From Promethearchaeota archaeon (lineage in GTDB: Archaea; Asgardarchaeota; Lokiarchaeia; Sigyniarchaeales; SOKP01), in contig JBHLLU010000073.1 of NCBI GenBank assembly GCA_048938895.1, positions 1 to 16,607 of the forward strand: a DNA stretch of 16,607 bases, read 5' to 3'. The notes beneath the pieces were generated by a model, which ran no database searches, was not told the DNA's origin, and was given only the letters and a program-made list of their open reading frames with translations. Both the position numbers and the translations under genes were made by a program. This document shows positions 4,115 through 13,756 of this stretch, piece by piece. Position 1 is the first letter of the stretch. Each line of letters begins with the position of its first letter.

Positions 4115-4624
4115 TTATTCTTCAGGAGTGAAACCAGCATCTAAAATTATTTCAGTAGCTAGTCTTGAGATAGTTCCTACTAGATTAGAACAATGTTTCA
4201 TCATATCAGATTCAAAAGCTGCTTTTAATTCGTCTGGATCCCATAAGTTATATGTTCTACCCACTAACGATTCCTGAACGTCATGACATCTACATGAGCC
4301 ATATTTTTCGACATATTTATCAAGCAGTTTCTTTACAAGGGTATAAGATTTCATAGGTTTATACATATCTCCAAAATCTTTTAAATCTCTCCCAAACAAA
4401 TAACTAATTACCATAGAAGCGCCTGTTAACGCACCACAAGCAGATTCTCCAGTTAAACCGAATCCATCAGCTAGTCCACTTCCAGCTTTAAAAACATCAT
4501 CGCTCCAAATTCCTAAAGCTTCAAATATAGCAGCTATAGAAGTTTGAGCACAGCCTGTATTCTTCTTCTCATATTTTTGCCCTAATTCAAAGGCTTTAGC
4601 TAGAATTTTTTCTTTTTCCATCAT
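4115..4624 (-). CDS. C_GCAxxG_C_C family putative redox-active protein (tandem paralogue)
   Basis: GCAQ, LADGFG, ACGALTGA, YGSCRCHDV and HCSNLV give the family's Cys pattern. Confidence 0.88.
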   Translation of the reverse strand: MMEKEKILAKAFELGQKYEKKNTGCAQTSIAAIFEALGIWSDDVFKAGSGLADGFGLTGESACGALTGASMVISYLFGRDLKDFGDMYKPMKSYTLVKKLLDKYVEKYGSCRCHDVQESLVGRTYNLWDPDELKAAFESDMMKHCSNLVGTISRLATEIILDAGFTPEE

Positions 4625-4685
4625 AATTAATATAAATTATTTTATTGGTATTGTATAACTTTTTATAAAATTTAAAAAATTAGAT

Positions 4686-5909
4686 TTAGAGGTCATAAAG
4701 ATCAACTTCCTTTATAATTAATACATCTTCTCCTGAAAGATTCTTTCCACAATATTTAGCATATCTATCAAGAAAGCCCATCGGATCTGTAAACGCTTCT
4801 TCTGGAGTAAGAACTCCCTTTTCAATAATTTCTCCATTTACTAACATTTCTACAGTAATTGCTAATGGAATTCCAGTTACTCCTGCCATCCCCCCAGCGG
4901 GTACCTTTTCATTAGCAATTGCGATTTTTTTTCTCTTTCCCTCTTTTGTACCAATTGCAATAACACTCAATCCAGGGGGCATGCCTATATACTCTTTAAT
5001 ATTTTCTGAAGTCCTTGGTTGGTCTCTTAATTCCTCATAAAATTTAATAGACGCTTCACTTACACTGAGTTCTTTATTCCTTATTTTTTGAGTATATTTA
5101 CGAATTATTTCTGTTATTCCCTTACCCATATACATTAAATTTGAGACAGATTTTACCTTTAAAACCCTTGGGAGTGTTACTGGTTCAGGATGACCAATAT
5201 GACATACATAAGTGTCCTTAAATCCAGGAAATTGATAAGGTTCTGCATCAGTTAACGGTTTAATATTTATAAACTTACCATCTTTGTAGATTGGGAAATC
5301 TTCTAGTGTCTCATAAAAAAGATGCATTGTGGCTGCGTTTGCTATAATTGGCATGTCTTTATACTTCTTATAAAATAGTCTTGCAGGTACATAATATTTG
5401 GGATTTTCTCCCACTTTACCGGCACCACCAGTGCCCCATGCTGTAATGAGATCATTAACTTCATCGAGTTTAGAGCAGGCGATTACAGCCATTATATTAG
5501 TAATTCCAGGACTCGCACCTATACCTATAATTCCTGTAATCTCAGCTTTTTTAGCCTTTTCATTCATTTCAAGGAGATCTAAAGTTGGTTTCCAATCATC
5601 ACATATATCCACATAATGTTTCTTAGCTTTAATAACAGAATCCAAAATCGAAGTTGTATATTTATAGTATGGACCAACTGTGTTCATTACGATATCATGA
5701 GAAGCTATTAAATCTTGTAACTTATCTTTGTAAGTTACATCAATTTCAGCGGGTATAAGTTTATCAGAACCAATTATATCGATAAAATGGTTCACTCTTT
5801 CAATATTTTTATCTGCTACTGTAATATAAGAAATAGTTGGAGATTCAAGCAGAATTGATACTGCCATTCTCCCCATGTCTCCAGATCCTCCTAATGCTAA
5901 TACCTTCAT
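4686..5909 (-). CDS. Saccharopine dehydrogenase / lysine 6-dehydrogenase-like NAD(P)-dependent oxidoreductase
   Basis: Rossmann start KVLALGGSGDMG, then NTVGPYY, YVDICDD, GIGASPGITN, HPEPVTLP and GVLTPEEAF. Confidence 0.87.
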   Translation of the reverse strand: MKVLALGGSGDMGRMAVSILLESPTISYITVADKNIERVNHFIDIIGSDKLIPAEIDVTYKDKLQDLIASHDIVMNTVGPYYKYTTSILDSVIKAKKHYVDICDDWKPTLDLLEMNEKAKKAEITGIIGIGASPGITNIMAVIACSKLDEVNDLITAWGTGGAGKVGENPKYYVPARLFYKKYKDMPIIANAATMHLFYETLEDFPIYKDGKFINIKPLTDAEPYQFPGFKDTYVCHIGHPEPVTLPRVLKVKSVSNLMYMGKGITEIIRKYTQKIRNKELSVSEASIKFYEELRDQPRTSENIKEYIGMPPGLSVIAIGTKEGKRKKIAIANEKVPAGGMAGVTGIPLAITVEMLVNGEIIEKGVLTPEEAFTDPMGFLDRYAKYCGKNLSGEDVLIIKEVDLYDL

Positions 5910-6051
5910 TTTTGATTTCTTTTCAATTTTTTTATTGGATCAAAATATCACTACTCAACGCAATTGATCCTTTGTCATTTCTCTATAAAAATATTTATTA
6001 CTTGATTAATGTTGTATAATAATTAAATCATTTAATGAAAGGGAGACTTTA

Positions 6052-7359
6052 ATGTCAAGAAAAGAAATTGCCTGGTATGAAAACGATATGCTTAAGGACA
6101 TGTATATCAAAGCAGGTTCAAATGCCTTCAGAGGGTATCATTCTCCAATTGTCACTCCTAAAACTACTTTTGTTGGAACGAATAGCTTAAATGATTTTAT
6201 TAACCACATATCCGCTTATCTATCCGATGACGAAAGAAGGGTTTTGATAGTGGTTGATAAAGATTTACGAAAGCTGGGCGAAAGAGTTGCTAAAAGATTA
6301 GATCAGCGAAGAATTGATTCAAGATTTTATGATAACGTGCTTCCAGATGCACCTAAGTTCACAATACTTGAGGGAGCTAAAATCTGTGAAGAATTTGATC
6401 CAAAAGTAATTCTAGCTATAGGTGGTGGTTCTGCTATGGATACTGCAAAGCTAATTTTACTATATTATGAACAGCCGAATATTAATATTAACAATATGAG
6501 TGCTCCATATTATGCCGGGCTTAGGAAAAAAGTAAAGATTCTTGCGGCAATACCTACTACTTCAGGAACAGGCGCAGAAACAACATTTATAGCTGTGGTG
6601 ACAGATACAGATAGAGATCCACCTAAAAAAACAGAGGTTGTCTTGTATGAATTTTGTCCAGATTTCGTAGTTCTTCATCCCGATTTTGTTAAGACTATGC
6701 CTCCTAGTTTAACTACTGGAACGGGAATGGATGCACTTGCTCATTCAATGGGTTCTTACATACTTACAATGAGTACTTTATTCACTGACATGCATAATTT
6801 GAAAGCAATTGAACTGATTTTAAAGTATTTACCTCGCTCTGTGAGAAGAGGGAGTGATATGGAAGCAAGAGAAAAAATGCAGATGGCAGCATATATAGCG
6901 GGAATAGGATTTGGGAACATTTCTGGAGGGATAGAACATTCTTTAGGTCATTCTTTTGGAGCTTTGTTCCATGTTCATCATGGAATATGTGTAGGTTTAT
7001 TTTTATGCGCTTCGATTGCTTTTCAAGCAAAAGTGACGAATAGATTTATTGACCTTGCCAAACTATTTAATATAAAAGTTGAAAAAAGAGAGAGAGATGA
7101 GATTTTAAGAGATTTACTTATTGATTTAAGAGAATTTATGAATAATGTAAATTGTCCCTTATCTATTCAAGAGCTAGATGACCCTAAGATATCAAAAGCG
7201 GATTATTTTGATAAGTTGGAACAACTGATCGAATTTGCATTTAACGATTATTGTACATTATCATCTACACGTAGAATTAACCGCTTACAATACAAAAAAA
7301 TCTTTGAAATAACCTATGAAAACAAATTAGAAGATTTAATGAGTTTATTTTATGAATAG
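6052..7359 (+). CDS. Iron-containing (group III) alcohol dehydrogenase
   Basis: GGGSAMDTAK, IPTTSGTGAE, and metal ligands in GMDALAHS, EHSLGHS and VHHG. SD-like GGGAG lies just upstream. Confidence 0.93.
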   Translation: MSRKEIAWYENDMLKDMYIKAGSNAFRGYHSPIVTPKTTFVGTNSLNDFINHISAYLSDDERRVLIVVDKDLRKLGERVAKRLDQRRIDSRFYDNVLPDAPKFTILEGAKICEEFDPKVILAIGGGSAMDTAKLILLYYEQPNININNMSAPYYAGLRKKVKILAAIPTTSGTGAETTFIAVVTDTDRDPPKKTEVVLYEFCPDFVVLHPDFVKTMPPSLTTGTGMDALAHSMGSYILTMSTLFTDMHNLKAIELILKYLPRSVRRGSDMEAREKMQMAAYIAGIGFGNISGGIEHSLGHSFGALFHVHHGICVGLFLCASIAFQAKVTNRFIDLAKLFNIKVEKRERDEILRDLLIDLREFMNNVNCPLSIQELDDPKISKADYFDKLEQLIEFAFNDYCTLSSTRRINRLQYKKIFEITYENKLEDLMSLFYE

Positions 7360-7365
7360 GAGGTG
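7358..7365 (+). promoter_or_regulatory. Shine-Dalgarno AGGAGGTG for aor, overlapping the adh stop codon
   Basis: AGGAGGTG at 7358-7365 is 7 nt before an in-frame TTG at 7373. Confidence 0.7.
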
Positions 7366-7372
7366 TGAAAAA

Positions 7373-9241
7373 TTGAATACACTATTTGGGTATAATGGTA
7401 AAATAGCATATATTGATTTGAACTCTTTAAATGTGGAAATAAAAGACTTGGGATATGAACTTATTGAGGAGTATTTAGGTGGCGCAGGACTCTCTGCAAA
7501 ACTTACCTATGATCTCCTATCTGAAGATGATTATCACACTTTGCGAGAAGATCCTTTTTCGGGTGTAAATCCATTGATCTTTTCTACAGGACCTTTGACT
7601 GGAACAGCTACTCCTTCTAGCAGTAGATATTGCGTTACAGGAATTTCACCCCTCACAGGGATATGGGGTGAAGCAACTTCAGGTGGATTCTTTCCCATTG
7701 CTTTAAAAAGATGTGGTTATGACGCTATAGTAATCACTGGGAATAGCAAAGCACCTAACTTTATTTATATCAATAATGGAAAAATAGAAATTAAAGATGG
7801 AGATTATATCTGGGGAAAAAACACTCGAGAAACTATAGAGCTAATTAGAGAGAATCTGAATGATGACAAACTTAGAGTCGCGTGCATTGGAAAAGCTGGA
7901 GAAAATTTAGTGAAATATGCTGCGATTATTAACGATGAAGGAAGAGCTGCAGGCAGATGTGGATTAGGGGCATTGATGGGAAAAAAGAAATTGAAAGCTA
8001 TAGCGATAAAAGGAAGTCAACCAATTGAGTATGCTGATAGGGAAGAATTAAGAAATCAAGGAAGGACAACTCAAGAAAATGTGATGATTCCTTTTGCGGC
8101 AAATCTTTTTTCTCACTATGGAACGTTAATTTATACAGATATGGGTATGGTTATTGGTGACGTTCCCACTAAATATTTTACAAGTTCTGAATTTATTGCT
8201 GAAGATTTAACTGGGAGGGCTTTAAAGGAACAATATGTAGTTTTAAAATACGCTTGTTCTGGTTGTCCTATTGGATGTGGGAGAAAAACCATCTTAGAGA
8301 TCAATGGTGAGGAAGTAGAGGTTGACGGACCTGAATATGAAACGACAGCAGCTTTTGGACCATTGTGTGGAATCCTTAATTTTAAACCAATAATTAAAGC
8401 AAACCATAGATGTAATCTCGAAGGAGTAGATACAATTTCTTGTGGGGTTTCTATTTCATTTTTAATATATTTGGTTGAAAACAACCTTGCTAAACCCGAG
8501 ATTGAGAAATATCTAAATGAAATCAGTTTAGAGGAGATTCGATGGGGAAATGACGAAATAGTTTTAAAACTATTAAATCTCCTTATCGATAGAAAAGGAA
8601 TAGGAGATCTATTAGCTGAAGGCACTAGAATAATGGCTAAAAAACTTGGTGTTGATCCTAGCTTGGCTGCCCATGTAAAAGGTTTAGAAATCCCCATGCA
8701 TGACCCCCGAGCATATTTAGGACAGGCTCTAACTTATATGACTGCTTGTACAGGAGCTAATCATAATAAAGGAGATTTTTATAATATTGATGGTGATGCT
8801 GCTTCTTATGCGAAAATTAGGAAAAAAGATAGATTCACAATTAATAAAAGGGAAAAAGCCATAATCGCATATCAAGATTTAACTAATATCTATGATTCTG
8901 CGGTTATATGCAATTTTACACATATTAACGATGGAACGCTAGCAAAACTTTTAAAATTGTCTACAGGAATTCAATCATTTGGAAGCAGTGGTACTCTATT
9001 TAAAATAGGAGAACGCGCTTCAAATCTTAAAAGATTGATTTCATGTAAGCTTGGGTGTAGACGAGAAGATGACTACCTACCAAAAATTGTTTCAACTGCT
9101 TTAAAAACAGGAGGTTCAGCGGGAATTGCCGTGAATTTAGAGGAAAATTTAAAAGAATATTATGAAAAACGCGGATGGGTGTGGGAGACAGGTTTTCCTT
9201 CTGAAAAAAAATTAGAGGAACTCAATATATTAACATCATAA
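7373..9241 (+). CDS. aor: Aldehyde:ferredoxin oxidoreductase (tungstopterin, 4Fe-4S); ORF track start 7352, likely true start TTG 7373
   Basis: GYNGKIAYIDL, YLGGAGL, SPLTGIWGEATSGG, GRCGLGALMGKKKLKAI, Fe-S motif CSGCPIGC, GPEYET, GVDTIS, VKGLEIPMHDPR, distal Cys in ICNF, and EYYEKRGW. Confidence 0.95.
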   Translation: MNTLFGYNGKIAYIDLNSLNVEIKDLGYELIEEYLGGAGLSAKLTYDLLSEDDYHTLREDPFSGVNPLIFSTGPLTGTATPSSSRYCVTGISPLTGIWGEATSGGFFPIALKRCGYDAIVITGNSKAPNFIYINNGKIEIKDGDYIWGKNTRETIELIRENLNDDKLRVACIGKAGENLVKYAAIINDEGRAAGRCGLGALMGKKKLKAIAIKGSQPIEYADREELRNQGRTTQENVMIPFAANLFSHYGTLIYTDMGMVIGDVPTKYFTSSEFIAEDLTGRALKEQYVVLKYACSGCPIGCGRKTILEINGEEVEVDGPEYETTAAFGPLCGILNFKPIIKANHRCNLEGVDTISCGVSISFLIYLVENNLAKPEIEKYLNEISLEEIRWGNDEIVLKLLNLLIDRKGIGDLLAEGTRIMAKKLGVDPSLAAHVKGLEIPMHDPRAYLGQALTYMTACTGANHNKGDFYNIDGDAASYAKIRKKDRFTINKREKAIIAYQDLTNIYDSAVICNFTHINDGTLAKLLKLSTGIQSFGSSGTLFKIGERASNLKRLISCKLGCRREDDYLPKIVSTALKTGGSAGIAVNLEENLKEYYEKRGWVWETGFPSEKKLEELNILTS

Positions 9242-9369: not shown

Positions 9370-9816
9370 TTGAAAGAACTCTACGAAATAGGCTTTGTTT
9401 TTAGAGGTTTTGTATTAGTTAACCATATATTTAAGCGTTTACCTGTTCAAAAAGAACATGGAGTAACTAAAGATCTTAGGGGCGCGTTTATTTCGGCAAT
9501 AAACGCTTTTACTGAAACTGCGTTTAATAAAAGCTCACTTGAATATTTGGAGTCTGGAAATATATTATTCATTTTTAAAATCGCAGAGATTCAATCAGAA
9601 GATAATGTTGTAAAAGAACCTTTAATTCTGTATGGTTTAGTAGATAAATCCAAAAGGAAATCTGATAAACTTGTTAACAAATTTTTTGATCGAGTGAATC
9701 CTGTTTTACAATTGTTTGTTCAGTCATTTAGTGGGGCGAATTTCTCAGAATTAAACCAGTTTGAAGATTTTGAAGAAAAGGTCATTGCTTTTCTTACAAA
9801 AAAACCACAAGAATAA
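9370..9816 (+). CDS. Stand-alone longin-like domain protein (sigma-adaptin/TRAPP/Mon1-type fold), 148 aa, TTG start
   Basis: The pattern fits the longin beta-beta-alpha-beta-beta-beta-alpha-alpha order: LYEIGFVFRGFVLVNHIF hairpin, helix DLRGAFISAINAFTETAF, strands LEYLESGNILFIFK and LILYGLVD, helix ending LQLFVQSF, final helix NQFEDFEEKVIAFL. Confidence 0.72.
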   Translation: MKELYEIGFVFRGFVLVNHIFKRLPVQKEHGVTKDLRGAFISAINAFTETAFNKSSLEYLESGNILFIFKIAEIQSEDNVVKEPLILYGLVDKSKRKSDKLVNKFFDRVNPVLQLFVQSFSGANFSELNQFEDFEEKVIAFLTKKPQE

Positions 9817-11466
9817 TTAAACCATAAGACTCCACCCTTTTGGTTTTGCCCTAGAATATTGTATTTTGCCTTGTTGCTTTAATAAATTAATTTCACTTTC
9901 AATCTGAGTAACTGGAAACCCTCTTGCTTTAATATCGTTTATAAATTCTGTTTTAGTATCAACTACTCCTTTTTCCTTTAGGTATTCAATAATTACATTA
10001 CTCAGTGAATCCATTGAACTTATTTCTTGTATTGGTGCTTTATCTCTTTTAGATGTCGATAGCACTGCACTTAACTTTTCTTTATCAGACTTAGTAGGTT
10101 CTTCTAATACCATATGTTTTACAGCGACTTTCGGTTCTTCAATCGGAGTTTCCTCTTTAACTTCTTCCTCCCTACTTTCCTCTTCTAGTCGCCAAGCAGG
10201 ATATTCAATTTTTTCATAAATGACGGATTTTTGTGTCTTTAGTAAAGTTAAATCTTCCAGGATCTCATCTTCAGTGTAATCTAATTCCTTTAATTCAGTT
10301 TCTAAATCTTTCAAATATCCCTTTTTTAACATAATTTCAAAAATGTGCTCTCTTATATTAGTAGGAACATCTTTGACCTTAGCAATCTCATCAATAACAG
10401 TTGAACCTTCATTAGTATCTACAACCTCTAATTCTGTTTGAGGGGAAATTTCTAAAAGTTGTTTATCACCCCATTCAAAATCAGTCATTATACGGATAGT
10501 ACGGTCATATCCACCAAAAATAATATTTTTTTTCTCTCTGTCTACTCTATAACATATATGTTTAATTGATGTAGACACCTTAGTCTTCCATTTTAATTCA
10601 AAATCGGAAGAATCTAGATTAGGATTATGATACACTTTTAAGGAACCGTCTGCACATCCAACCACGATCTCCTTAGCATTATCACCATCAATATCTTCAA
10701 TCAATAATGCTAAAGGGCGGCTTTCTTCAGTTAGAATATCTTTAATTGATTCTCCATTACCATCAAGAACTTTTATAACTGAATTGTCAGTACTTATCAA
10801 GATTTCATTGAAACCATCATTGGTTACATCCCCGACTTTGATATCATTAATTTGTGCTGCGAAATCTTTTTGCCAAACAATGTCAGGAAGTCCATCTTTA
10901 AATCTTATTAATTGAACGATTCCACTCTTAGTTCCAACTATCAGTCCATAAATTGGTGTCTTTTCAGCATTTAATTTTATTATACCTAGTGTGCAAGCTG
11001 TTACCCAAGAGTCGTAGTACATAATGAATTTTGGTTCCTTCGAATCAATGCTCTCAAAGATTTTTATAGTTTTATCTTCACTACCAAATATTAATTCTAT
11101 ATTCCCATTGCGAGTAATATCTCCCGCAATGCAACAATTTACACGCTTAGGAGATTTGTAACGCATTATTCCAACTAATTTTTTCTTTTCTGGACTCAAC
11201 TTTAAAACCATAAAACTTCCATCTCCCGCACCCACTAATACTTCATCGCATCCATCCCCATCAAGATCAATAGGATAACTACATCGACACCATCCATCAA
11301 AGACTCGATCATCTATTATATTCATAGTTTCATCCATTAAATAGAGAGTTTTATCATGTCCCCCGAAAACTAAGAAGTTATTCTCTTTACATTTTAATAC
11401 TGAACATGTTAAAACCGCATCTGGACATTCAAACATATGATTAAGTTGAAATCGCTTTCGAATCAT
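9817..11466 (-). CDS. Seven-bladed FG-GAP/WD-like beta-propeller protein with two C-terminal winged-helix-like domains
   Basis: Seven blade repeats in aa 1-330 (FGGHDKTLYL, VGAGDGSFMV, FGSEDKTIKI, VGTKSGIVQL, ISTDNSVIKV, VGCADGSLKV, FGGYDRTIRI). Four carry DxDGDG-like loops. Two related ~60-aa units lie at aa 368-427 and 487-549. No signal peptide or TM segment is visible. Confidence 0.8.
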   Translation of the reverse strand: MIRKRFQLNHMFECPDAVLTCSVLKCKENNFLVFGGHDKTLYLMDETMNIIDDRVFDGWCRCSYPIDLDGDGCDEVLVGAGDGSFMVLKLSPEKKKLVGIMRYKSPKRVNCCIAGDITRNGNIELIFGSEDKTIKIFESIDSKEPKFIMYYDSWVTACTLGIIKLNAEKTPIYGLIVGTKSGIVQLIRFKDGLPDIVWQKDFAAQINDIKVGDVTNDGFNEILISTDNSVIKVLDGNGESIKDILTEESRPLALLIEDIDGDNAKEIVVGCADGSLKVYHNPNLDSSDFELKWKTKVSTSIKHICYRVDREKKNIIFGGYDRTIRIMTDFEWGDKQLLEISPQTELEVVDTNEGSTVIDEIAKVKDVPTNIREHIFEIMLKKGYLKDLETELKELDYTEDEILEDLTLLKTQKSVIYEKIEYPAWRLEEESREEEVKEETPIEEPKVAVKHMVLEEPTKSDKEKLSAVLSTSKRDKAPIQEISSMDSLSNVIIEYLKEKGVVDTKTEFINDIKARGFPVTQIESEINLLKQQGKIQYSRAKPKGWSLMV

Positions 11467-11536
11467 AATCTCACAAGAAGCCTTTAGATTATAGAAATTT
11501 TAATAATATCAAAAATAAATTTTTCTATTTATTCAT

Positions 11537-11559
11537 TTAAGAATTATCTTAAGAATTAT
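11537..11559. repeat. Tandem 11-bp direct repeat TTAAGAATTAT x2 upstream of the propeller gene
   Basis: Exact copies at 11537-11547 and 11549-11559, separated by one C. Confidence 0.55.
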
Positions 11560-11587
11560 TAAACTGTTAGTTTGGATTAGATATATG

Positions 11588-11605
11588 AAAAAAATAAAAA
11601 AAAAA
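11588..11605 (-). terminator. Oligo-T terminator after the 713-aa gene
   Basis: The minus strand reads T10-A-T7, starting about 10 nt after the stop codon. Confidence 0.65.
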
Positions 11606-11614
11606 TTTATTATT

Positions 11615-13756
11615 TTATAATGCTAATTGCGCATCTGATGGACTATATTCACCTGTACCAGTGATTTCATAAGAAATCTCTAATTTATCTCCTATATCCA
11701 ATTCTTCAATTTCCCATTTTAAGGTATCTTGGCCTACTTCATCCGTAACCTTAGGTGTCATTGAATAAGTTCCATATTCAAACGAATCTGGTACTTTATC
11801 AAGAAGTACAAGATTATAGAGTTTTGATTCACCAATATTTTCAAGAGTTAAGATGATTCTGTAATTACCAAGAGTTCCGATTGGAACAACTTCTTTACTT
11901 GTACGGAATTTCCTTCTAATATGAAGTGCTTCGATTACAGGAACTTCAGGTCTGAATTCTAACTCTTGACTTACAGGGTAAGTGTTTGCATGATAAATTA
12001 TTTCAGATTCAAATGTAGAATCTCGAACAGGATTTACACAATGAATAGGATACTGAAATTCTAAAGTCGAGTCTGGTTTAAACATCCCCGTACTTGTATC
12101 TTTAAGATCTTTAAGAGATATAGTAAAAACATCCATTTCAAAGCTCACAGCGTCTCCAGAAAGTTCTACTTCATCTCCGTCCCAAATTAATTTAATTTCA
12201 TCGGCTTTGGGAGGCTGATATTCATCTGTAAAAGTTTGTTGAATAACAGTAATTTCATTTAGTGGAGCTGAACCGTTATTTGCCATTTTAAGAGTAGCAA
12301 TAACGTCTTGAGCTTTGTAGGTAGGAGTTTCAACTCTGTCGTAAGCCATATCTCCTGTGATGCTAGCAATCTCTAATATAACGTCTGAAATTGATACTGA
12401 GACAGTAACTTGATATTGATAATCAGGAACAACACGAAATTCAAGTTTCTTCCGAAATGTTGGATAATCTTCGCTTTCATATTGCCACTTAACTGAATGC
12501 CATTGAGCTCCTGAAGGTAACATAGGAACATCATTAGGATCAATATCGACAAATTTTGTACTCTCGTCATCTGGACTATAAACATCTGCATTGAAAAGCT
12601 GAATTATAAATTCTGAAGAGTTATCAAAGATTAATTTATTATCCCAAATATTTGGTTCTTCATCTCTCTCAAGAGTATCAATAAAAAATTTGTTCCGAGT
12701 ATAGGCATCAAATTTATCAATAGCTAATCCCTCTGCAAATGAAGAAGCTGCTTTATAGGTAACATCGATATCGCCTGTTCTTCTTCTAGCGATGTCATTT
12801 ACTGTGATGTTACATGTAAATTTGAGTAAGACGGTATAATCTGGTCTTAATTTCTCTATTTTCCAAATTATTTTATCGCCTTCGATTTCAGCCTTTCCTT
12901 CTGTTGTGTTTCGAATGGCAGGATTAGTAAATTCATCTGGTATTGTCTTTATAACTTCGATTTTTGAAACAGGTTTATCAAATTCATTTCTTAACGCAAT
13001 TGCAAAGGTTACAGTGTTTTCTCTGTCAATTGAGATTCCAAATGTTTCTAATTCCGATACTACAGCAGTCCCACCATCTTCCCAGACCTCTTCTTCATCA
13101 TCTTCATCATTATCCTCTTCTTTGTCGTTTTTTGCTTCTGGGGGTATAGTTGCAACTTTTTTACTTACTTTACTTGTTTTATCTTTAAGTTTTAAGAGTT
13201 CTTTTTCGATATCGTTAATATTTAAAACATCATCAGCTTCAGGAAGAGTACTTATAAATTCTTTTACTAAAAAGAGGTTTTGAACATCTTTTTTAAGTTC
13301 AAATTCTTTTGTTTCAACGTTATCTGGATATTCTGTTCCTAATTCCCTTATTGATATATCCTTTGATTTTAAATTTGTACTAGCAATATTTTTTAATGAA
13401 ACATCAATATCCCAAAGACGGTCAGAATTACTTGGGTTTTCAATACTTATTTTTCCCCCAAAATTAAATGAATCAACATTTGCATCATGGTCTTGTTTAA
13501 CTTCTACATCTTCAATGATTTTTACTAATGCTAATAATCCTTCTCGATTTCCATCTTTTAATAAAATGCTACCTTCAAGTGCTCCGGTGTCTTCATCATA
13601 TGTCTCAATAACTGGAGTTGCTGTATCTCTATCAACTAACTTTACTTTTCCCTCATCCATATCTGTTCTTTTTAAAGCATCTGCTACGAGTTCTTCTCCA
13701 GCTTCCTCTTTGTCAAATCCCATTCTAGATGGTTTTTTTTTCTTATCTTTTGCCAT
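11615..13756 (-). CDS. Cytoplasmic multi-beta-sandwich protein: mu-homology-domain-like N-terminal half plus C-terminal DUF11/appendage-like Ig folds
   Basis: 713-aa acidic ORF rich in beta strands, with no signal peptide. aa 75-352 resemble the adaptin mu C-terminal domain. aa 614-705 (KEVVPIGTLGNYRIILTLENIGESKLYNLVLLDKVPDSFEY..LKWEIEEL..LEISYEI) fit the DUF11-type Ig pattern. The CDS is certain; the product call is inferred. Confidence 0.6.
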   Translation of the reverse strand: MAKDKKKKPSRMGFDKEEAGEELVADALKRTDMDEGKVKLVDRDTATPVIETYDEDTGALEGSILLKDGNREGLLALVKIIEDVEVKQDHDANVDSFNFGGKISIENPSNSDRLWDIDVSLKNIASTNLKSKDISIRELGTEYPDNVETKEFELKKDVQNLFLVKEFISTLPEADDVLNINDIEKELLKLKDKTSKVSKKVATIPPEAKNDKEEDNDEDDEEEVWEDGGTAVVSELETFGISIDRENTVTFAIALRNEFDKPVSKIEVIKTIPDEFTNPAIRNTTEGKAEIEGDKIIWKIEKLRPDYTVLLKFTCNITVNDIARRRTGDIDVTYKAASSFAEGLAIDKFDAYTRNKFFIDTLERDEEPNIWDNKLIFDNSSEFIIQLFNADVYSPDDESTKFVDIDPNDVPMLPSGAQWHSVKWQYESEDYPTFRKKLEFRVVPDYQYQVTVSVSISDVILEIASITGDMAYDRVETPTYKAQDVIATLKMANNGSAPLNEITVIQQTFTDEYQPPKADEIKLIWDGDEVELSGDAVSFEMDVFTISLKDLKDTSTGMFKPDSTLEFQYPIHCVNPVRDSTFESEIIYHANTYPVSQELEFRPEVPVIEALHIRRKFRTSKEVVPIGTLGNYRIILTLENIGESKLYNLVLLDKVPDSFEYGTYSMTPKVTDEVGQDTLKWEIEELDIGDKLEISYEITGTGEYSPSDAQLAL

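What the first reader, a model, noticed from the sequence alone, without database searches (positions are those of the whole stretch)
12701..13534. N-terminal half of the 713-aa protein resembles the adaptin mu-homology domain
Seen: LVKIIEDVEVKQDHDANVDSFNFGGKISIEN (aa 77-107) and VTFAIALRNEFDKPVSKIEVIKTIPDEF..TEGKAEIEGDKIIWKIEKL..IDVTYKAASSFAEGLAIDKF (aa 249-349). From memory, AP mu subunits have, in the same order, '[30 protein letters not shown]' and 'KIEVRIPTP..GKAKY..IVWKIKRM..ISMNFEVP.APSGLKVRYL'. Both MHD subdomains seem represented, which a simple DUF11 repeat would not explain. Inference: a prokaryotic MHD with no fused longin, while a free longin is encoded two genes away.
Basis: partly seen in the sequence, partly recalled or inferred. 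Interest (0 to 1): 0.8.

Follow-up and report, generated by a model that had tools for sequence, protein, structure and literature searches.

The report
Asgard stand-alone mu-homology-domain protein
This Lokiarchaeia-type Asgard archaeal gene encodes a soluble protein whose first two-thirds are predicted to fold like the cargo-binding "mu-homology" domain of eukaryotic vesicle adaptors, but its family was already listed as such in 2023 and what it does is untested.

Summary
The ORF at 11615..13756 (-) encodes 713 aa, and the quoted stretches lie at aa 77-107 and 249-349.

The sequence signal is weaker. The protein itself hits only DUF11. Pfam PF00928 is reached only by some homologues, and only on the middle lobe. 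That lobe is a DUF11-type repeat of the protein's own C-terminal Ig domains.

There is no fused longin. The 148-aa neighbour is plausibly longin-like. Only the BBS7/ITFG2-like propeller gene stays nearby beyond the family level.

Orthologues are listed as "Adap_comp_sub" candidates in Eme et al. 2023, Table S3. This scan has met the family on other DNA before.

Verdict: real and well supported as a fold, already known as a family, function inferred only.

The parts
11615..13756 (-). Whole gene, 713 aa (P0001). A soluble, very acidic protein with no signal peptide and no membrane segment.
   Evidence: ORF list and translation. The highest Kyte-Doolittle 19-residue mean is 1.49. Net charge is -64.
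13547..13756 (-). N-terminal extension, aa 1-70. It is lysine-rich then acidic, with one helix and four short strands. It is not a longin domain and is poorly conserved.
   Evidence: AF2 pLDDT 38-81 and DSSP. Mean occupancy is 0.64, and no position is conserved at 80% or more across 48 homologues.
13166..13546 (-). First part of the MHD-like N-lobe, aa 71-197.
   Evidence: Structural alignments start at aa 71-72 = mu2 168-169. Eight positions are conserved at 80% or more family-wide: E82, G101, N107, W115, D116, L139, E166, T170.
13061..13165 (-). Disordered acidic insert, aa 198-232 (14 D/E, 4 K/R). It ends in a W-E-D-G-G motif and is lineage-specific and variable in length.
   Evidence: pLDDT is below 50. 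The corresponding stretch is 16 to 208 residues long in 18 homologues, and the W-[EG]-D-G-G motif is kept in the 7 closest.
12662..13045 (-).
   Evidence: DUF11 E 8.2e-8 at aa 245-325. PF00928 profile positions ~121-240 match here in homologues. hhalign to the C-terminal DUF11 domain gives probability 97.6%.
12377..12661 (-). Return segment, aa 366-460. It has seven strands and starts with the conserved ERDEEP / N-x-S-E-F stretch. Its last strands align with the last strands of mu2.
   Evidence: Structural alignments end at aa 458 = mu2 435. Nine positions are conserved at 80% or more. It is longer than the corresponding mu2 segment (95 residues against about 42; the mu2 figure is recalled).
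11921..12370 (-). Ig-like domain 2, aa 463-612.
11618..11914 (-). Ig-like domain 3, aa 615-713, a DUF11-type domain.
   Evidence: Pfam counts two DUF11 stretches in this protein, only one of which (aa 245-325) is printed. In homologues the printed DUF11 stretch lies at aa ~633-709. Nine positions are conserved at 80% or more.
9817..11466 (-). Downstream co-directional neighbour, 549 aa. It has a BBS7/BBS2/ITFG2-like FG-GAP beta-propeller and a C-terminal non-propeller part. It is the only neighbour that stays near the MHD gene beyond the family level.
   Evidence: PF23743 E 6.6e-19, 68.7 bits; PF14783 E 1.2e-10; PF13517 E 7.1e-10. It is adjacent in 7 of 7 loci of the same family. In 5 genomes of the sister family it is adjacent in 2 and one gene away in 1.
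9370..9816 (+). 148-aa ORF convergent with the propeller gene, plausibly a longin-like small protein.
   Evidence: No Pfam hit in any of 11 members. hhalign to four Fuz_longin_1-type proteins of the same genome gives probability 82%, E 1.1e-5, 76 columns. It is present in 7 of 7 same-family loci and in 0 of 13 other loci.

Best explanation
The gene encodes a cytoplasmic, strongly acidic scaffold protein of the Asgard family that Eme et al. 2023 listed under Pfam Adap_comp_sub.

Residues 71-460 are predicted to fold as a complete two-lobed mu-homology-domain (MHD)-like module. It has an N-lobe made from aa 71-197 plus the returning aa 366-460, a DUF11-type middle lobe (aa 238-365), and a lineage-specific acidic loop. 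Two further Ig-like domains follow (aa 463-713).

Shown: the gene, the family, the predicted fold and its best matches, the internal DUF11 repeats, and the gene neighbourhood.

Inferred: the protein works as a protein-protein adaptor that grips partners on the edges and faces of its beta-sandwiches, as eukaryotic MHDs grip short peptide motifs. In this order of Lokiarchaeia-type archaea its most likely partner is the neighbouring BBS7/ITFG2-like propeller protein. It is not a subunit of a canonical AP tetramer, and it probably does not read YxxPhi signals.
For: Fold:
- AF2 pLDDT is 84.5 for the full protein and 87.0 with pTM 0.78 for aa 25-470, with all five models at 86.2-87.0.

Sequence:
- PF00928 is hit on the middle lobe in 7 of 8 close homologues. 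Seven of those eight were chosen because they already carried the label. E was 1e-5 to 1e-8, and 3 were over the 31.6-bit cut-off.
- It is hit in 8 of 12 members from other families (two over the cut-off, at 47.4 and 40.1 bits).
- It is hit in 4 of 15 longer members.
- A protein with 32 canonical DUF11 repeats gives no PF00928 hit at E<=0.1.

Family:
- Orthologues with the same N-terminal motifs are listed under Adap_comp_sub PF00928 in Eme 2023 Table S3.

Cytoplasmic location:
- No hydrophobic segment, and net charge -64.

Partner:
- The propeller gene is adjacent in 7 of 7 same-family loci.
- It is adjacent or one gene away in 3 of 5 sister-family genomes. The glycerate-kinase-like and 148-aa neighbours are absent in all 3 sister-family loci.
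Against: - This protein itself does not reach PF00928 at E<=1, nor PF10291 muHD at E<=10.
- Its only significant Pfam family is DUF11.
- phmmer against the PDB finds nothing. A family profile finds AP-3 mu only at E 0.23.
- PF00928 was missed by 0-of-7 and 11-of-15 scanned longer members, and by both paralogues in this genome.
- In P0152 the PF00928 hit lands on the C-terminal DUF11 domain. The profile therefore recognises this family's Ig repeat in general, not the MHD context.
- DSSP gives seven strands each to aa 71-169 and aa 370-456. A packing of separate Ig domains, rather than one interdigitated N-lobe, is therefore not excluded.
- ESM Atlas nearest named clusters are all archaeal DUF11 proteins. 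For some of them the commonest phylum is Thermoplasmatota.
- A gap-free extrapolation from the alignment ends puts L77, K79, E106, P444 and Y446 at the mu2 pocket numbers that I recall (174, 176, 203, 421, 423). None is alike, but this is crude.
- No partner, ligand or expression data exist.
- Beyond the order, none of 10 loci has the propeller nearby.
Confidence: 0.6

Rival explanations
1. Generic archaeal Ig array. The protein is a tandem string of five DUF11-type or Ig-like sandwiches whose first three happen to pack like an MHD. The likeness to eukaryotic adaptors would then be convergent, or reflect only a shared Ig ancestry, and would say nothing about function.
For: - DUF11 is the only significant Pfam hit.
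- The middle lobe, Ig2 and Ig3 are repeats of each other (hhalign 92-98%). The return segment is weakly like Ig3 (69%).
- A PF00928 hit falls on the C-terminal DUF11 domain in P0152.
- The two N-lobe segments have seven strands each.
- Atlas neighbours are all DUF11 clusters.
- Sequence identity to MHDs is 10-17%.
Against: - All nine MHD representatives in the library outrank every other fold, with twice the aligned length and both chain ends matched.
- Canonical DUF11 repeats (32 in P0192) do not hit PF00928.
- Six family members pass Pfam's own PF00928 cut-off.
- The N-lobe first part has no detectable likeness to the DUF11 repeats (hhalign probability below 12%).
Confidence: 0.25
2. The protein is the medium-subunit part of an AP/COPI/TSET-like adaptor assembly, in which the longin part is supplied in trans by the 148-aa neighbour and large subunits by HEAT proteins elsewhere.
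For: - The fold is a complete MHD.
- The 148-aa ORF is plausibly longin-like and is present in 7 of 7 same-family loci.
- The genome has two HEAT proteins over the Adaptin_N cut-off.
- Eme 2023 reports all AP domain types in Asgard archaea, unfused (passages).
Against: - The 148-aa gene is on the opposite strand and is absent from all 13 loci outside the family. The unrelated glycerate-kinase-like neighbour is just as conserved within the family, at 7 of 7.
- No Clat_adaptor_s match reaches the cut-off in this genome (best 19 bits against 22.5).
- The Adaptin_N hits lie on other contigs, and control genomes ring too.
- None of 22 longer family members has a fused longin.
Confidence: 0.08
3. 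Surface or S-layer-type DUF11 protein exported to the envelope.
For: DUF11 and related Ig repeats are typical of surface proteins. Foldseek on the full model ranks pilins, integrin legs and adhesins first by E-value.
Against: - There is no signal peptide or membrane segment. The N-terminus is charged, and net charge is -64.
- The Foldseek array matches have TM 0.1-0.2 and rmsd of 24 A or more.
- The gene neighbours encode cytoplasmic proteins.
Confidence: 0.02

Closest known systems
Asgard 'Adap_comp_sub (PF00928)' candidate eukaryotic signature proteins, Eme et al. 2023, Nature 618:992 (PMC10307638), Supplementary Table 3
   Same: Same family. The table holds 44 occurrences of the label. Its Lokiarchaeales entries share long N-terminal stretches and the ERDEEP motif with this protein (table passages seen). 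The main text and an extended-data legend say that the C-terminal domain of the mu subunit is found in Asgard archaea, not fused to the other AP domains (passages and section 11 read).
   Different: This exact protein is a further orthologue and does not itself reach PF00928. The paper calls the distribution sparse. The full-length profile used here matches 249 of 301 sampled genomes of the phylum. I saw no structural model, domain dissection or synteny for this family in the parts I could read. The Supplementary Information PDF is not held.
Mu-homology domains of AP-1 to AP-4 mu subunits (for example PDB 5wrk, 9fiw, 7ohz, 4mdr, 4ikn, 1w63)
   Different: - There is no N-terminal longin domain or linker.
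- The return segment is about twice as long.
- An acidic disordered loop is inserted between the lobes.
- Two extra Ig domains follow.
- Identity is 10-17%.
- The YxxPhi pocket could not be verified and is probably not conserved (crude extrapolation).
MHDs of delta-COP (4o8q, 5fjw) and of muniscins SGIP1/Syp1 (5awr, 3g9h)
   Different: In eukaryotes they follow a longin domain (delta-COP) or an F-BAR or other N-terminal region (muniscins). No such domain is present here.
DUF11 (PF01345) repeat proteins of archaea and bacteria
   Same: The middle lobe and the C-terminal domain pass the DUF11 cut-off (33 bits against 24.6, two stretches). They are repeats of each other.
   Different: Canonical DUF11 proteins are long exported arrays, for example P0192 with 32 repeats. 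This protein is cytoplasmic. It has a non-DUF11 N-lobe, and its first three segments pack into an MHD-like unit.

Membership tests
Pfam Adap_comp_sub (PF00928), the MHD of adaptor medium subunits | Match to the family HMM at or above the gathering score (31.6 bits) | tested here: not met
   There is no hit at E<=1 for this protein, or for its genome in six frames. The threshold is met by some relatives only: 3 of 8, 2 of 12 and 1 of 15. Their hits always cover only profile positions ~107-241.
Mu-homology domain (fold level) | Two beta-sandwich lobes in a fixed elongated arrangement, with the chain leaving lobe A, forming lobe B and returning to lobe A | tested here: met
AP mu / delta-COP / TSET medium subunits | N-terminal longin domain joined to the MHD by a linker | tested here: not met
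   Only 70 residues precede the module, forming one helix and four short strands. There is no longin Pfam hit in this protein, or in any of 22 longer family members.
AP mu subunits | YxxPhi-binding pocket residues on the first and last strands of lobe A | not testable with these tools
   No residue-level structural alignment or coordinates are returned. A gap-free extrapolation from the alignment ends gives unlike residues at the recalled mu2 positions. This is a hint only.
AP/COPI-type heterotetramer | Sigma-type small subunit (Clat_adaptor_s, PF01217) and large adaptin subunits encoded in the genome, ideally linked | tested here: inconclusive
   The best PF01217 match is 19 bits, below the 22.5 cut-off, and control genomes ring as well. 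Adaptin_N is over the cut-off on two unlinked contigs, but control genomes ring too.
DUF11 (PF01345) | Match to the family HMM above the gathering score (24.6 bits) | tested here: met
   E 8.2e-8, 33 bits, two stretches, the best at aa 245-325.
Asgard Adap_comp_sub candidate family of Eme et al. 2023 | Full-length homology to the listed Lokiarchaeales proteins | tested here: met
   Word search of Table S3 with two short words of this protein found Lokiarchaeales entries under the PF00928 label. Their printed sequences are collinear with this protein from the N-terminus on. I read this by eye from the passages; no alignment was run on them.
Longin/roadblock superfamily (for the 148-aa neighbour) | Match to a longin-type profile | tested here: inconclusive
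   None of 11 members hits any longin or roadblock Pfam model at E<=10. The ORF is not hit by PF19036 or PF03259 in the genome scan. hhalign to four Fuz_longin_1-type proteins of the same genome gives probability 82%, E 1.1e-5. An Atlas neighbour cluster with Fuz_longin_1 on 34% of members scores 0.88, which is a lead only.

The most novel reading that the evidence does not exclude
This family preserves the pre-eukaryotic form of the mu-homology domain. In this form a module is assembled from tandem DUF11-type Ig domains, with a still full-sized third sandwich that eukaryotes later reduced to two or three return strands.

In Lokiarchaeia-type archaea the family would already work together with a BBS7/ITFG2-like beta-propeller protein as a primitive adaptor-plus-propeller pair acting on membranes or cargo.

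The family is also far more widespread in the phylum (249 of 301 sampled genomes) than the published 'sparse' PF00928 listing suggests.
Probability: 0.12. Interest if true: 0.8.

Novelty: already known. Interest (0 to 1): 0.35.

Why it matters
Eukaryotic vesicle coats use the mu-homology domain to select cargo, and where it came from is part of the open question of how the endomembrane system arose.

A complete MHD-like module in a widespread cytoplasmic Asgard family would give a concrete, expressible archaeal protein on which to test whether motif-based cargo or partner selection predates eukaryotes.

- Both lobes are predicted, not only the lobe that Pfam sees.
- That lobe is a DUF11-type repeat of the protein's own C-terminal domains. 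This cuts both ways for the homology claim.
- The family profile matches most sampled genomes of the phylum.
- The only neighbour that persists beyond the family level is a BBS7/ITFG2-like propeller.

None of this shows function.

Tried and rejected
- phmmer of the protein against PDB sequences gave 0 hits at E<=10. A family profile gave only AP-3 mu at E 0.23-0.82, among unrelated hits. This is not significant.
- PF00928 and PF10291 scans of the genome gave nothing. For both, no control genome rang either, so these blanks show little.
- The search for related loci with alignments A1 and A2 failed, because no stretch was conserved enough. I used the genome search instead.
- Complex prediction (aa 23-470 with the propeller protein) was never accepted, because the queue was full at every try. 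No complex was predicted, so nothing can be said on binding.
- The look-up of sequencing runs listed no RNA holder.
- ESM Atlas gave only DUF11 clusters for aa 60-470, and unnamed clusters for the 148-aa ORF. These are leads only.
- The listing of cluster members: only 2 of 10 distant members carry a name, Hodarchaeales and a 'Bathyarchaeota' MAG label. The question of whether the family leaves the Asgard phylum stays open.
- One search compared alignment A4 with itself by mistake and says nothing.
- The PDB profile search with the 148-aa family found no longin.
- The YxxPhi pocket was tried only by gap-free extrapolation from range ends, with mu2 residue numbers recalled from memory. I rejected this as a test and kept it as a hint.
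- Literature searches: 'Asgard' with 'mu homology domain', with 'Adap_comp_sub', and with 'MHD' plus 'coatomer' each found 0 papers. Kostlbacher et al. 2026 (PMC12962969) mentions adaptor homologues only as patchily distributed (passages). PMC13734099 lists a BBS7/ITFG2 Asgard cluster and AP gamma adaptin, but no MHD (passages). I found no printed structural analysis of this family. The Supplementary Information PDF of Eme et al. is not held and may contain one.
- The S-layer or surface reading was rejected on sequence grounds.
Full report
THE GENE

The window (about 32% G+C) carries one ORF at 11615..13756 on the minus strand, 713 aa. The finding's coordinates cover aa 75-352.

The protein has no hydrophobic segment: the highest 19-residue Kyte-Doolittle mean is 1.49. 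It starts with a lysine-rich then acidic tail and has a net charge of -64. I read it as cytoplasmic.

Its relatives are 'hypothetical proteins' of Promethearchaeota, Lokiarchaeota and similar MAG labels. The window is therefore from a Lokiarchaeia-type Asgard archaeon. Its genome is held as G000: 174 contigs, 98.7% complete, 7.5% contamination.

SEQUENCE-LEVEL EVIDENCE

Pfam gives this protein only DUF11 (E 8.2e-8, 33 bits, two stretches, the best at aa 245-325). There is no PF00928 hit at E<=1. A six-frame scan of the genome with PF00928 and with PF10291 finds nothing. phmmer against PDB sequences finds nothing.

Homologues do reach PF00928:
- 27 of the 120 best listed relatives carry a precomputed PF00928 label.
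- I rescanned 8 of them, 7 chosen because they had the label. Seven hit PF00928 at E 1e-5 to 1e-8, and three were over the 31.6-bit cut-off. All hits were at aa ~245-366, matching profile positions 123-240 of 259.
- Among members from other families of the phylum, 8 of 12 hit at E<=1e-3, two of them well over the cut-off at 47.4 and 40.1 bits.
- Among longer members, 0 of 7 hit and 4 of 15 hit.
- Neither of the two paralogues in this genome hits.

The hit always covers only the part of the profile that corresponds to the second lobe of the MHD.

Two controls bear on what that hit means:
- A protein with 32 canonical DUF11 repeats does not hit PF00928 at E<=0.1. So the hit is not a general property of DUF11.
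- In P0152 the PF00928 hit lies on the C-terminal DUF11 domain rather than in the MHD-like module. In addition, hhalign on sub-alignments of 48 family members shows that the middle lobe (aa 238-365) is a repeat of the C-terminal domain (probability 97.6%, E 2.8e-12) and of the domain before it (92.2%).

The Pfam signal thus says that mu subdomain B resembles this family's own Ig repeat. It does not by itself place that repeat in an MHD.

STRUCTURE

With a 48-sequence alignment, AlphaFold2 gives:
- pLDDT 84.5 and pTM 0.67 for the whole protein. The disordered parts are aa 1-22 and 198-232.
- pLDDT 87.0 and pTM 0.78 for aa 25-470, with all five models at 86.2-87.0.

Foldseek on the whole model ranks long Ig arrays first by E-value, but with TM 0.1-0.2 and rmsd of 24 A or more. 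Mu2 MHD chains have TM 0.64-0.70 by target.

The decisive test is the wide search with the domain model, which does not lean on Foldseek. Of 48,161 representative chains, ranks 1-10 are all MHDs:

|---|---|
| mu2 | 15.8 and 15.6 |
| mu4 | 14.9 |
| a further mu2 | 14.7 |
| mu3 | 14.6 |
| delta-COP | 13.9 |
| mu1 | 13.7 |
| SGIP1 | 12.9 |
| yeast delta-COP | 12.8 |
| Syp1 | 11.7 |

I conclude that aa 71-460 are predicted to have the whole MHD architecture.

One reservation remains. DSSP gives seven strands each to aa 72-169 and aa 370-456, and the return segment is about twice as long as I recall it to be in mu2. The tools return no coordinates. I therefore could not check whether these two segments share sheets (true interdigitation) or are two sandwiches packed together.

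DOMAIN MAP

| Residues | Element |
|---|---|
| 1-70 | N-terminal extension |
| 71-197 | N-lobe, first part |
| 174-194 | helix |
| 198-232 | acidic disordered loop |
| 238-365 | middle lobe (DUF11-type) |
| 366-460 | return segment |
| 463-612 | Ig domain |
| 615-713 | Ig domain (DUF11-type) |

The extension and the loop are lineage-specific. The loop region is 16 to 208 residues long in 18 homologues. Members from other families are about 595-600 aa and align from aa ~238 on by sequence.

The N-lobe is nevertheless family-wide. Its occupancy is 0.86, with eight positions conserved at 80% or more across 48 sequences. Several distant loci also align to aa 61-177 by tblastn.

DISTRIBUTION AND PRIOR KNOWLEDGE

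A full-length profile matches 249 of 301 genomes sampled across the phylum at E<=1e-10. That is 75 of 90 high-quality genomes and 27 of 30 families. The weakest matches (E 1e-11 to 1e-25) may be DUF11-only.

Eme et al. 2023 (PMC10307638) state that the C-terminal domain of the mu subunit is detected in Asgard archaea, unfused and sparsely distributed. Their Table S3 lists 44 occurrences of 'Adap_comp_sub PF00928'. These include Lokiarchaeales proteins that are plainly orthologues of this one.

The family is therefore already in print as an MHD candidate. I found no printed structural dissection of it. The paper's Supplementary Information PDF is not held.

The scan's own notes show the same family reported on at least eight other windows. 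They reach the same reading and cite the same paper. I tested the points that I reuse.

NEIGHBOURHOOD

Downstream and co-directional lies a 549-aa protein with a BBS7/BBS2/ITFG2-like FG-GAP propeller (PF23743, E 6.6e-19). Convergent with that gene is a 148-aa ORF. Upstream lies a glycerate-kinase-like gene (DUF4147/MOFRL).

In 7 of 7 loci from five or more genera of the same family, all four genes keep their order. The metabolic gene is as conserved as the others, so at this depth synteny shows shared ancestry, not linkage.

In the sister family the propeller gene is:
- adjacent but convergent in G165 and G237;
- one gene away in G213;
- on other contigs in the fragmented G089 and G094.

The glycerate-kinase-like and 148-aa genes are absent from all three sister-family loci examined. 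In 10 loci from more distant families no propeller is nearby. So there is modest evidence for an MHD-propeller pair within one order, and none for a three-gene block.

The 148-aa protein:
- has no Pfam or PDB hit;
- is missed by PF19036 and PF03259 in the genome scan;
- aligns to four Fuz_longin_1-type proteins of the same genome at 82% probability, E 1.1e-5.

It is plausibly longin-like.

MECHANISM

Shown: a cytoplasmic protein with a predicted MHD-like module plus two Ig domains.

Inferred: it acts as a protein-protein adaptor, as all known MHDs do. The propeller protein is the most likely partner in this order.

It is unlikely to be a YxxPhi reader (crude hint) or a subunit of an AP-type tetramer. 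There is no fused longin in any of 22 longer members. No sigma-type subunit reaches the cut-off. The HEAT proteins are unlinked.

The complex prediction that would have tested the pair could not be queued.

VERDICT

The family is already known, and its function is open.

Noticed in passing
G000 contig C85, locus L054:7175-9178 (-): A 667-aa paralogue of this family sits inside a chemotaxis gene cluster, between CheA (L054:9242-11326) and a CheW-CheC fusion (4260-6242), with CheY at 11355-11750. With this protein as query, no match at E<=1e-60 was found in the 3 same-genus genomes or the other 18 same-family genomes searched. One match was found in another family of the order. The genome has 7.5% contamination, so the contig may be foreign.
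   Followed up: partly
Loci L045-L050 (genomes G038, G239, G128, G075, G006, G055): In 6 of 6 loci from three other families of the phylum, a ~230-aa metallo-beta-lactamase-fold gene (Lactamase_B_3, E 1e-15 to 1e-23) lies immediately upstream of, and co-directional with, the ~595-aa member of this family. This gene pair is conserved more widely than the propeller pairing.
   Followed up: partly
window 13061-13165 (-), aa 198-232: The disordered acidic loop inserted between the two lobes ends in a tryptophan motif, W-[EG]-D-G-G, that is kept in the 7 closest of 18 homologues while the rest of the loop varies. Trp-acidic motifs are what some eukaryotic MHDs and appendages bind (recalled). It could be a self-binding or partner-binding motif.
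   Followed up: partly
window 9817-11466 (-); genomes G213, G089, G094: In one genus of the sister family the BBS7/ITFG2-like propeller protein is only 370-500 aa. The part matching the C-terminal ~130-150 residues of the window's protein is then a separate 238-243-aa ORF elsewhere in the genome. A 2026 preprint lists a BBS7/ITFG2 Asgard-eukaryote structural cluster (PMC13734099, passage).
   Followed up: no
Locus L045:10390-10962 (+) and L045:5131-5535 (-): In genome G038 the family member lies within about 2 kb of an ARPC4-like ORF (PF05856, E 3.4e-7, 30.5 bits, over the cut-off) and a ubiquitin-conjugating-enzyme ORF (PF00179, E 3e-31). These are further eukaryote-like genes in one neighbourhood.
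   Followed up: no
Proteins P0227 (aa 694-776) and P0228 (aa 603-676): Two longer family members give weak, sub-threshold hits to the adaptin appendage Ig domain Alpha_adaptinC2 on one of their Ig domains (E 0.003 and 0.031; 18.3 and 15.0 bits against a cut-off of 27.6).
   Followed up: no
window 6052-9241 (+) and 4686-5909 (-): The rest of the window is metabolic. It holds an iron-containing alcohol dehydrogenase followed by an aldehyde:ferredoxin oxidoreductase that overlaps it by 8 bases, and a saccharopine-dehydrogenase-like gene. An AOR gene also lies near the family member in loci L042 and L043, from another family of the phylum.
   Followed up: no
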